Source: Eledone cirrhosa
Lineage: Eukaryota
Assembly: GCA_964016885.1 (NCBI GenBank)
Contig: OZ024743.1
Span: forward strand, 178,622,001-178,686,000
Direction of reading: 5' to 3'
DNA: 64,000 nt
Positions within the stretch are counted from its first letter, which is position 1. Each line of letters opens with the position of its first letter. Of the stretch, positions 12,086-13,600 are shown one piece after another. The notes under the pieces are model-generated. The model worked only from the letters and a program-made list of their open reading frames with translations, had not been told where the DNA came from and ran no database searches. Both the position numbers and the translations under genes were made by a program.

Positions 12086-12317
12086 TATATATATATACAT
12101 ATATATATATACATATATATATATATATATATATATATATATGAAATACGTCCCTTCACGCACAAGGCGCCAACGTACGCATGTATTGTCCAACCAAGTG
12201 CCAATGTGGTTCAATGGCGGGTTAATAAATTAACGAGCCAGAACAAATATAAACAAGGTTTAGTAAATAATGAAAAAGTTTCGAAATAAATTTTAAAAAA
12301 TTGACTTTACCTACTAT

Positions 12318-12407
12318 AGTTACCTTTACCGATCGGTTTCGAATCCCAAAAATAAAACGGAGACCATACGGCCTTCGTTGCAAAGAGAGATTCTCGTCAG
12401 AAGGTTC
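12318..12407 (-). ncRNA. Type I hammerhead ribozyme, tandem copy 1
   Basis: Reverse complement: acctt-CTGACGA-gaatctc...gggattc-GAA-ACCGATCGGT-A-aaggt. All three stems pair; GUA cleavage site. Confidence 0.85.
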
Positions 12408-12800
12408 TTTTCATTCAAAGAATATAAAATTCCTGAATTTAAATCACAGACTAGCGCTATCAAAAACTGTTCCTGGGATGAGAGTGGATGATGTAGAACA
12501 GGTTTATCAAGGGCCGTAGCAAAGATAGAGGCAAAATGAGGTAGGTCAAACTAGCCACCGCTGTTGCCAGCAGCAGTCGGAATGACCCGGTTTGTTCTCA
12601 ACGTTAGTGGAGGTAGTAGTAATATGAAATACGTCCCTTGACGCACAAGGCGCCAAGGTACGCATGTATTGTCCAACCAAGTGCTAATGTGGTTCAATGG
12701 CGGGTTAATAAATTAACGAGCCAGAACAAATATAAACAAGGTTTAGTAAATAATGAAAAAGTTTCAAAATAAATTTTAAAAAATTGACTTTACCTACTAT

Positions 12801-12890
12801 AGTTACCTTTACCGATCGGTTTCGAATCCCAAAAATAAAACGGAGACCATACGGCCTTCGTTGCAAAGAGAGATTCTCGTCAGAAGGTTC
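12801..12890 (-). ncRNA. Type I hammerhead ribozyme, tandem copy 2
   Basis: Same sequence as 12318-12407, 483 bp downstream. Confidence 0.85.
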
Positions 12891-13600
12891 TTTTCATTCA
12901 AAGAATATAAAATTCCTGAATTTAAATCACAGACTAGCGCTATCAAAAACTGTTCCTGGGATGAGAGTGGATGATGTAGAACAGGTTTATCAAGGGCCGT
13001 AGCAAAGATAGAGGCAAAAGGAGGTAGGTCAAACTAGCCACCGCTGTTGCCAGCAGCAGTCGGAATGACCCGGTTTGTTCTCAACGTTAGTGGAGGTCTC
13101 TTTGCAACGAAGGCCGTATGGTCTCCGTTTTATTTTTGGGATTCGAAACCGATCGGTAAAGGTAACTATAGTAGGTAAAGTCAATTTGTTAAAATTTATT
13201 TTGAAACTTTTTCATTATTTACTAAACCTTGTTTATATATATATATATATATATATATATATATATATATATATATATATATATATATATATATATATAT
13301 ATATGTATATATATATATATATATATATATGTATATATATATATATATATATGTATATATATATATATATAGGTTTGTTGGTTGACCACTGGATAGAACT
13401 GGTCATTCCGTATGCTCAACGATATCACCGGATTCATACTGAACCCAGTCATTGAAATGATCATAGTATAATAAACCTTTTAAGGAATTACATCAGTCCC
13501 GCCTCCTGTTATTTTATAATATATATATATATATATATATATATATATATATATATACACAATATATTAATAAATGGAAACTATATTTATAAAACCATAA

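What the first reader, a model, noticed from the sequence alone, without database searches (positions are those of the whole stretch)
12142..13235. Tandem 483-bp ribozyme units able to form a dimeric hammerhead and release a unit-length RNA
Seen: two near-identical units, each with a minus-strand hammerhead whose stem III is the palindrome ACCGATCGGT. A third, inverted copy begins just inside stem II and lacks the CTGACGA core. Established: hammerheads with short palindromic stem III can cleave as tandem dimers, and retrozymes yield monomeric or circular RNAs this way. Inference: an antisense transcript would be cut into a 483-nt monomer that could circularise.
Basis: partly seen in the sequence, partly recalled or inferred. 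Interest (0 to 1): 0.72.

Follow-up and report, generated by a model that had tools for sequence, protein, structure and literature searches.

The report
Two-armed hammerhead retrozyme, Penelope-type insertion
This is one young copy of an abundant protein-free repeat whose 483-base unit carries a predicted self-cutting hammerhead RNA; the shape of its insertions suggests that a Penelope-type transposon enzyme copies one RNA, likely a circle, from both ends of a DNA break, so it is a known kind of element with an unusually clear footprint.

Summary
Observation confirmed: two 483-bp units (5 differences), each with a minus-strand type I hammerhead, plus an inverted piece lacking the CUGACGA core. 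It is a non-LTR retrozyme family with 1,206 exact hammerhead matches genome-wide; none of 66 loci examined runs into a Penelope-type ORF. Arms end in (TA)n at two fixed sites, 80 or about 188 nt past the cut; 29 of 30 classifiable two-armed loci have one of each. A sister family and an intact autonomous Hydra-type Penelope element in this genome show the same pattern. Lineage variants are fixed across all units of a locus (54 of 59), and 150 crossings of the cut site are seamless: this fits one template, probably a circle, copied repeatedly. Stem III loops switch between palindromes across families (GATC, GCGC, GTAC), favouring dimer use, but a monomer fold is also feasible. Cleavage, RNA and circle are untested, and the partner element was not found. 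This copy lies antisense in a glutamate-receptor intron; read-through from outside would fold a ribozyme shut. The class is published, and this scan noted the same kind repeatedly on other DNA of this genome. Verdict: new member of a known kind, interest 0.38.

The parts
12083..12138 (.). left (TA)n tract, about 56 nt
12139..13097 (-). long-ended arm, 959 nt, about two laps of the 483-nt unit; fixed 3' end at monomer position 188 (window 12139), truncated 5' end at position 196 (window 13097)
   Evidence: L001 1498-2456
12139..12246 (-). 108-nt 'tail' between the two fixed 3' ends (monomer positions 81-188), the inferred pair of reverse-transcription start sites
   Evidence: inference from PMC11167929
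12322..12405 (-). type I hammerhead 1: stem I ACCUU/AAGGU, core CUGACGA 12400-12394, long stem II, GAAA, stem III palindrome 12328-12337, predicted cut between 12327 and 12326
12805..12888 (-). type I hammerhead 2, identical in sequence; predicted cut between 12810 and 12809
12327..12809 (-). the one complete 483-nt monomer this locus could release (39.5% GC; circular fold z = -4.0)
13097..13238 (+). short-ended inverted arm, 142 nt (monomer 422-483 + 1-80); fixed 3' end at position 80; has GAAA, stem III and cut site but no CUGANGA core
13239..13371 (.). right (TA)n tract, about 133 nt
11308..11432 (+). host exon of a metabotropic glutamate receptor-like gene, upstream of the insertion
   Evidence: mGluR4 457-494, E 4.6e-8; AG/GT edges seen
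18716..19651 (+). next host exon (cysteine-rich and 7TM domains); the element lies in the intron between the two exons, its ribozymes antisense to the gene
   Evidence: (match resumes at mGluR4 497)

Best explanation
This is one young insertion of an abundant non-coding repeat family with a predicted self-cleaving hammerhead in each unit (a non-LTR retrozyme), likely copied into (TA)n microsatellites by a Hydra-type Penelope-like reverse transcriptase-endonuclease acting in trans on a probably circular 483-nt RNA. Steps: (1) inferred: an array of two or more units is transcribed on the ribozyme strand, probably by Pol II, since four T runs of 5-6 in the monomer would stop Pol III; (2) predicted: the hammerheads cut, as monomers or better as dimers through the palindromic stem III, and release a 483-nt monomer; (3) inferred: the monomer is ligated to a circle; (4) inferred: the Penelope-type protein nicks both strands of a (TA)n tract, and the two 3' ends prime at two internal sites, +80 and about +188; (5) shown in DNA: both arms run through the cut site for a variable length (up to about 11 laps) and are joined head to head, giving tandem arms with one long and one short outer end. 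The window's inverted piece is the second arm.
For: Shown: 1,206 exact motif matches. 97 of 102 arms in 66 loci end at 78-84 or 174-196. 29 of 30 classifiable two-armed loci have one of each (p = 3e-8). Sister family B (482 nt, roughly 55-60% alike by eye) shows this in 16 of 17 two-armed loci (counted from the table). An intact 785-aa element with Hydra motifs RWK, DKT and CxCX5C (motifs from PMC8557442 section 11) has two ends 118 nt apart, one of each in 6 of 6 insertions with both ends in view (read by eye). Substitutions shared by 3 or more loci are fixed in all units of a locus in 54 of 59 cases and carried by both arms in 29 of 32; 17 private variants are fixed across a locus, 5 of them across both arms. 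In L193, 9 of 10 full units are identical, including the one on the opposite arm, at 54 differences from the window unit. 0 of 150 cut-site crossings have an indel, against 3.0% of background windows; 5' ends do not pile up at the cut (3 of 102, 1.3 expected). Stems I and II covary across families. The circular fold has z = -4.0 on the ribozyme strand of both A and B, against -0.3 and -2.0 on the other strand. Empty paralogues of the L002 site already hold (TA)n. Literature: two internal start sites with a tail between them in a Penelope-like enzyme (PMC11167929); tail at one end, inverted copies and (TA)n bias (PMC8557442); circle-templated tandem copies proposed (PMC4209133, PMC7229834).
Against: No cleavage, transcript or circle was observed. 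No autonomous element with a terminus resembling this unit was found: 16 Hydra-type 3' regions gave no real match (the one high score, L088, is a family copy lying in that flank), and the active 785-aa element's terminus is unlike it, so the Hydra link rests on shared architecture and target. An uncut multimer from a homogeneous donor array would leave the same DNA; in the anole enzyme unprocessed RNA was the main substrate and ribozyme mutants still inserted (PMC11167929). In Xenopus 8 of 9 retrozyme dimers did not cleave in vitro (bioRxiv 10.64898/2026.07.22.740005). 5 of 59 shared variants are mosaic within a locus. Both active folds of the two-unit RNA lie 7.5-11 kcal/mol above its minimum. 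Assembly polishing could make tandem units look more alike. 26 of the 66 loci were picked as best matches to the window unit.
Confidence: 0.72

Rival explanations
1. Same family and same Penelope-type enzyme, but the template is an uncut multimeric transcript of a young homogeneous array; the ribozyme and any circle are by-products or a passenger.
For: Seamless junctions and no run-off at the cut are equally expected. Ribozyme-dead RNA inserts normally in vitro (PMC11167929). Active folds are not the predicted minimum.
Against: Lineage variants are almost never mosaic within arrays although units pick up private changes after insertion (54 of 59 fixed, 109 private mosaic changes), which needs a monomer bottleneck. 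Core, stems and palindrome are kept with compensatory changes across families 25-45% apart. 5'-truncating copying would shrink arrays, yet arms of 9-11 laps exist.
Confidence: 0.2
2. The unit is only the truncated terminal repeat of an autonomous Penelope-like element, doubled by partial-tandem insertion, with no life of its own.
For: Same two-end, inverted, (TA)n architecture as the autonomous Hydra-type element. Such termini carry hammerheads (PMC4209133).
Against: Upstream of each unit lies another unit, up to about 11 times, never an ORF end. 0 of 66 loci continue into a Penelope-type ORF. Two sister families keep the same 478-486-nt period.
Confidence: 0.04
3. A minisatellite or foldback DNA element amplified at DNA level (unequal crossover, replication slippage or DNA transposition).
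For: Local tandem amplification is the route proposed for vertebrate arrays (bioRxiv 10.64898/2026.07.22.740005, discussion). Inverted ends resemble a foldback element.
Against: Outer ends are unequal and fixed, inner junctions are random (chi-square p = 0.38). Adjacent units in the window differ by private changes. One strand folds better and carries a covarying ribozyme.
Confidence: 0.04

Closest known systems
Metazoan non-LTR retrozymes (Cervera and de la Pena 2020, PMC7229834; Li, Clavereau and Pollet 2026, bioRxiv 10.64898/2026.07.22.740005)
   Same: Non-coding tandem units with one type I hammerhead each, low GC, dimers to multimers, dispersed at high copy, co-occurring with Penelope-like elements.
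   Different: Unit is 483 nt (170-400 nt RNAs and 150-450 bp repeats in the 2020 paper; 51-972 bp in the 2026 survey). Stem II is 53 nt long and Rfam misses it. In the parts I read, those papers do not describe two fixed ends, two-armed insertions or (TA)n targets. RNA and cleavage were shown there, not here.
Hydra-clade Penelope-like elements (Craig et al. 2021, PMC8557442)
   Same: (TA)n targets, 5' truncation, inverted second copy, tail at one end, hammerhead in the terminus; an intact element with Hydra motifs in this genome shows the same one-long-one-short ends.
   Different: No ORF. Tail is 108 nt here and 118 nt in the local autonomous element, against 30-40 bp quoted for Penelope-like elements. 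No sequence-level partner found.
Anole Poseidon element PAc (Frangieh et al. 2024, PMC11167929)
   Same: Two internal reverse-transcription start sites downstream of a hammerhead; both target strands cut and extended.
   Different: [quoted passage not shown] Here both ends fall at UAU-type motifs that match the (TA)n target (seen in sequence), and the arms lap a small unit.
Newt satellite 2 and axolotl dimeric hammerheads (as described in PMC7229834)
   Same: Palindromic stem III loop in tandem units, able to form a double hammerhead.
   Different: The dimer-dependent axolotl Amex1 motif has one base pair under the loop; this one has two C-G pairs, like Amex2 and the invertebrate motifs.

Membership tests
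non-LTR retrozyme | tandem units each with a complete type I hammerhead (two or more consecutive) | tested here: met
   arrays of about 9 and 11 laps
non-LTR retrozyme | non-coding, not the terminus of a coding element | tested here: met
   longest stop-to-stop frame inside a unit 81 aa; 0 of 66 loci contiguous with a Penelope-type ORF
non-LTR retrozyme | dispersed multi-copy family, GC under 50%, no LTR layout | tested here: met
   1,206 motif matches; 39.5% GC; arm layout. PBS and PPT were not searched for.
non-LTR retrozyme | self-cleavage in vitro | not testable with these tools
   core intact, stems covary; active fold feasible
non-LTR retrozyme | unit-length linear and circular RNA in tissue | not testable with these tools
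   no run on record as RNA was available to lay; indirect DNA evidence only
dimer-dependent hammerhead | stem III self-complementary and kept so by selection | tested here: met
   GATC in 1,206 of 1,234 family A motifs; family C, first 100 of 357 listed: GCGC 65, GTAC 25, other 10
dimer-dependent hammerhead | stem III too weak for monomer cleavage | tested here: inconclusive
   two C-G pairs plus tetraloop; monomer fold +2.1 kcal/mol; dimer only 3.8 kcal/mol better than two monomers in the two-unit RNA
Penelope-like element (autonomous) | RT plus GIY-YIG ORF | tested here: not met
Penelope-mobilised non-autonomous element | fixed 3' ends with tail, 5' truncation, inverted second arm, microsatellite target | tested here: met
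Penelope-mobilised non-autonomous element | sequence similarity to the terminus of an autonomous partner | tested here: inconclusive
   none among 16 Hydra-type 3' regions and one active family; only a small sample of the genome's families was seen

The most novel reading that the evidence does not exclude
A ribozyme-made RNA circle is the direct template of twin rolling-circle reverse transcription: one Hydra-type Penelope protein dimer loads both ends of a cut (TA)n target at two set sites 108 nt apart on a single 483-nt circle, both copy round it, and at some sites the telomerase-related enzyme stutters on the UAU start motif and writes new (TA)n (2 of 63 loci have a 12-16-nt target duplication outside TA tracts on both sides). 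That would make these elements a source, not only a user, of this genome's microsatellites and give a minimal substrate for the unsolved Penelope mechanism.
Probability: 0.25. Interest if true: 0.65.

Novelty: new member of a known kind. Interest (0 to 1): 0.38.

Why it matters
The class is known, but how animal retrozymes are copied back into DNA is still open: the 2026 preprint says the precise mechanisms remain to be elucidated. This family leaves a footprint that names the machinery (Penelope-type, probably Hydra clade), the two start sites and a single-monomer template. It supplies a 483-nt protein-free RNA and an intact 785-aa enzyme from the same genome for a direct test of circle against multimer, and of monomer against dimer cleavage. 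The locus itself is an ordinary intronic copy with no sign of a host function.

Tried and rejected
Rfam at gathering score: 0 matches in the window. Sequencing runs: no RNA holder listed; 2 of the 4 listed runs, contigs of unrecorded kind, were laid and only show that related copies exist; neither says anything on expression. Partner search: the Pfam family asked for was not in the library; a protein search found an active Hydra-type family whose terminus is unlike the unit; hammerhead-pattern searches gave sister non-coding families B and C, not a coding partner; 16 Hydra-type 3' regions did not match. Run-off at the cut site, expected for a linear cut template: not seen (3 of 102). General de novo (TA)n synthesis: the one testable site of 63 (L002) had (TA)n beforehand, so it is kept only for L005 and L018. 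Purging of sense-strand ribozymes from the intron: tempting, as this element's sense arm lacks the core, but motifs of other families lie on the sense strand at 15511 and 16448 in the same intron, so no claim is made. Pol III transcription: rejected by four T runs of 5-6 in the monomer. Pfam and PDB sequence searches did not recognise the 785-aa protein; its class rests on motifs and on Atlas look-alikes carrying HTH_animal and GIY-YIG (a lead only). The pair-count tool was not run to a result; covariation was tabulated.

Full report
Observation. The feature is as described. A 483-bp period with 2.0 copies spans 12139-13097; the units differ at 5 of 473 positions. Each has a minus-strand type I hammerhead: stem I ACCUU/AAGGU, core CUGACGA, a 53-nt stem II closed by GAAUC/GAUUC, GAAA, stem III CCGAUCGG and GUA at the cut. 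The cuts are 483 nt apart, after 12810 and 12327. The piece at 13097-13238 is an inverted 142-nt copy that starts 5 nt into stem II and lacks the core. (TA)n tracts of about 56 and 133 nt flank the whole. Rfam gives 0 matches at gathering score.

Setting. The window lies in a 3.0-Gb animal genome; an octopus is my guess from size and microsatellites, earlier scan notes say the same, and I did not test it. The element sits in an intron of a plus-strand metabotropic glutamate receptor-like gene: the exon at 11308-11432 matches mGluR4 457-494 and the next exon resumes at about 497. The ribozymes are antisense to the gene and the sense arm has no core, so this element would not cut the host RNA.

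Family. A 24-nt motif has 1,206 exact matches, control 0. I parsed 66 loci: 26 of the 30 best matches to the unit (4 overlapping loci dropped) and 40 consecutive sites on contig C1 from the first 100 listed matches; 5 more were looked at. Numbering the RNA from the cut, 97 of 102 arms end at 78-84 or 174-196; the other 5 are broken or cut by the locus edge. The 5' ends are spread evenly (p = 0.38). 34 loci have two arms head to head: 29 have one short and one long end, 1 has two short ends and 4 have an unclassifiable end (p = 3e-8 on 29 of 30). 30 loci have one arm and 2 have separate arms. None of the 66 continues into a Penelope-type ORF; frames at distance 0 run through the repeat or a TA tract into unrelated neighbours, and the one checked, in L079, is an RVT_1 frame on the opposite strand.

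Same footprint elsewhere. Pattern searches found family B (482 nt, alignment score 236 against 105 +/- 14 for shuffles; ends at 92-99 and 194-201; one of each in 16 of 17 two-armed loci among 26 distinct loci) and family C (about 486 nt, 68-87% alike in pieces). An intact 785-aa element with RWK, DKT and CxCX5C motifs, which PMC8557442 section 11 gives for the (TA)n-targeting Hydra clade, is very young here. It has two ends 118 nt apart, one of each in the 6 insertions with both ends in view among 30 loci. Its terminus does not resemble the unit, nor do 16 Hydra-type 3' regions, its own among them: the partner is not identified.

Template. In 42 young loci, counting substitutions outside two homopolymer runs, variants shared by 3 or more loci are fixed in every copy of a locus in 54 of 59 cases and lie on both arms in 29 of 32; private variants are mosaic in 109 cases and fixed in 17 (unfiltered counts were 54 fixed and 17 mosaic for shared variants). 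The window's own 5 differences are private or nearly so. L193, of a lineage 54 differences away, has an arm of about 11 laps, and 9 of its 10 extracted full units are identical across both arms. Arms cross the cut site 150 times with no indel within 5 nt (background 168 of 5,607 windows), and only 3 of 102 arms stop there, 1.3 expected. A cut linear monomer cannot be the template, since priming at +80 would give 80 nt. A circle explains all of this; an uncut multimer from a homogeneous donor is not excluded. The circular fold is more stable than 40 shuffles on the ribozyme strand of A and B (z = -4.0 each; other strands -0.3 and -2.0).

Target. Fixed ends abut (TA)n and most truncated ends of one-armed copies do too. 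In the one testable locus of 63 the empty paralogous sites already hold (TA)n. In 2 of 63 loci a 12- or 16-nt duplication lies outside TA tracts on both sides, which hints at new repeat synthesis but could be later expansion.

Dimer question. Stems I and II covary across families. The loop is GATC in 1,206 of 1,234 family A motifs and in most B motifs. In the first 100 of 357 family C matches it is GCGC 65 times, GTAC 25 times and something else 10 times (TG 5, CA 3, AG 1, AA 1; my count; the pattern fixed the outer G and C). Independent decay would give about 0.2 GTAC, so GTAC is an amplified lineage. Three amplified loops, all self-complementary and two changes apart, favour selection for pairing between ribozymes; two such switches have 1 in 16 odds by chance, and CG to TA is mutationally easy. 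Against a strict need: two C-G pairs close the loop, the monomer fold is 2.1 kcal/mol above the local minimum, and in the two-unit RNA the dimer (-240.0) beats two monomers (-236.2) by little, both above the minimum (-247.5).

This locus as a source. It could release one monomer, 12809-12327, if transcription starts within the 288 nt upstream. A read-through transcript from beyond 13238 carries the complement of most of a ribozyme and folds to -432.5 against -336.6 for the active dimer. It is more likely a product than a source.

Literature seen. bioRxiv 10.64898/2026.07.22.740005: parts 1-3 of 5, abstract to discussion, supplements not seen. PMC7229834: passages. PMC11167929: parts 1-2 of 4. 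PMC8557442: passages and section 11, supplements not opened. PMC4209133: passages. The class, the dimer idea, the circle-template proposal and the Penelope link are all in print. In five searches I saw no listing that describes this family or the one-long-one-short rule for retrozymes; a tail at one end only is in print for Penelope-like elements. The scan's notes hold at least 8 reports of the same kind on other DNA of this genome, and covarying palindromes in another genome; none matched this unit by sequence. I had reached my reading before looking (notes) and do not count them as support.

Verdict. A real, young non-LTR retrozyme insertion, a new member of a known kind. Retrozyme mobilised by a Penelope-type enzyme: about 0.9. 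Circle as the direct template: about 0.7. Dimer-enhanced cleavage: about 0.6; strictly dimer-dependent: about 0.3. Interest 0.38.

Noticed in passing
window 830 (+), 7054 (-), 9055 (+), 13659 (-), 15309 (-), 15511 (+), 16448 (+): Further hammerhead-like motifs of other families, most with TATATA or TGCGCA stem III; two lie on the sense strand of the glutamate-receptor intron.
   Followed up: partly
window 7990-8521: Inverted pair of fragments of a Hydra-type endonuclease region, with its 3' region running to the motif at 7054.
   Followed up: partly
window 10483-10904 and 15203-15617: Perfect palindromes with arms of 211 and 207 bp, probably head-to-head Penelope-type ends.
   Followed up: no
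window 11511-11693: Short two-armed remnant made of the long and short ends of another Hydra-type family, by eye against the 3' regions of L087, L088 and L093.
   Followed up: partly
window 24357-25869: 95-bp tandem array, 15.9 copies, 97% matches, no hammerhead core in the unit.
   Followed up: no
window 33795-36181 and 38475-39305: Broken retroelement reading frames; 34279-35145 has a weak RVT_1 match below cut-off.
   Followed up: partly
L110:532-2886 and L104-L133: Very young autonomous Hydra-type element: 92 scored matches at 99-100% identity, many with an open 785-aa frame; its 3' region holds an internal (TA)n-rich tract.
   Followed up: partly
L134-L163; L166, L170, L174, L179, L184, L191: Sister retrozyme families B (1,802 first-look candidates) and C (357 motif matches), all with a 478-486-nt period.
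   Followed up: yes
L005, L018: Target duplications of 12 and 16 nt lie outside TA tracts on both sides, hinting at new (TA)n made during or after insertion.
   Followed up: partly
L142:1123-2500: Three same-direction pieces with identical 5' breakpoints separated by TA tracts, probably a local duplication after insertion.
   Followed up: no
window 12730-12871 with 13097-13238: The two arms would form a 142-bp double-stranded hairpin in the host pre-mRNA intron, a possible editing or small-RNA substrate (inference).
   Followed up: no
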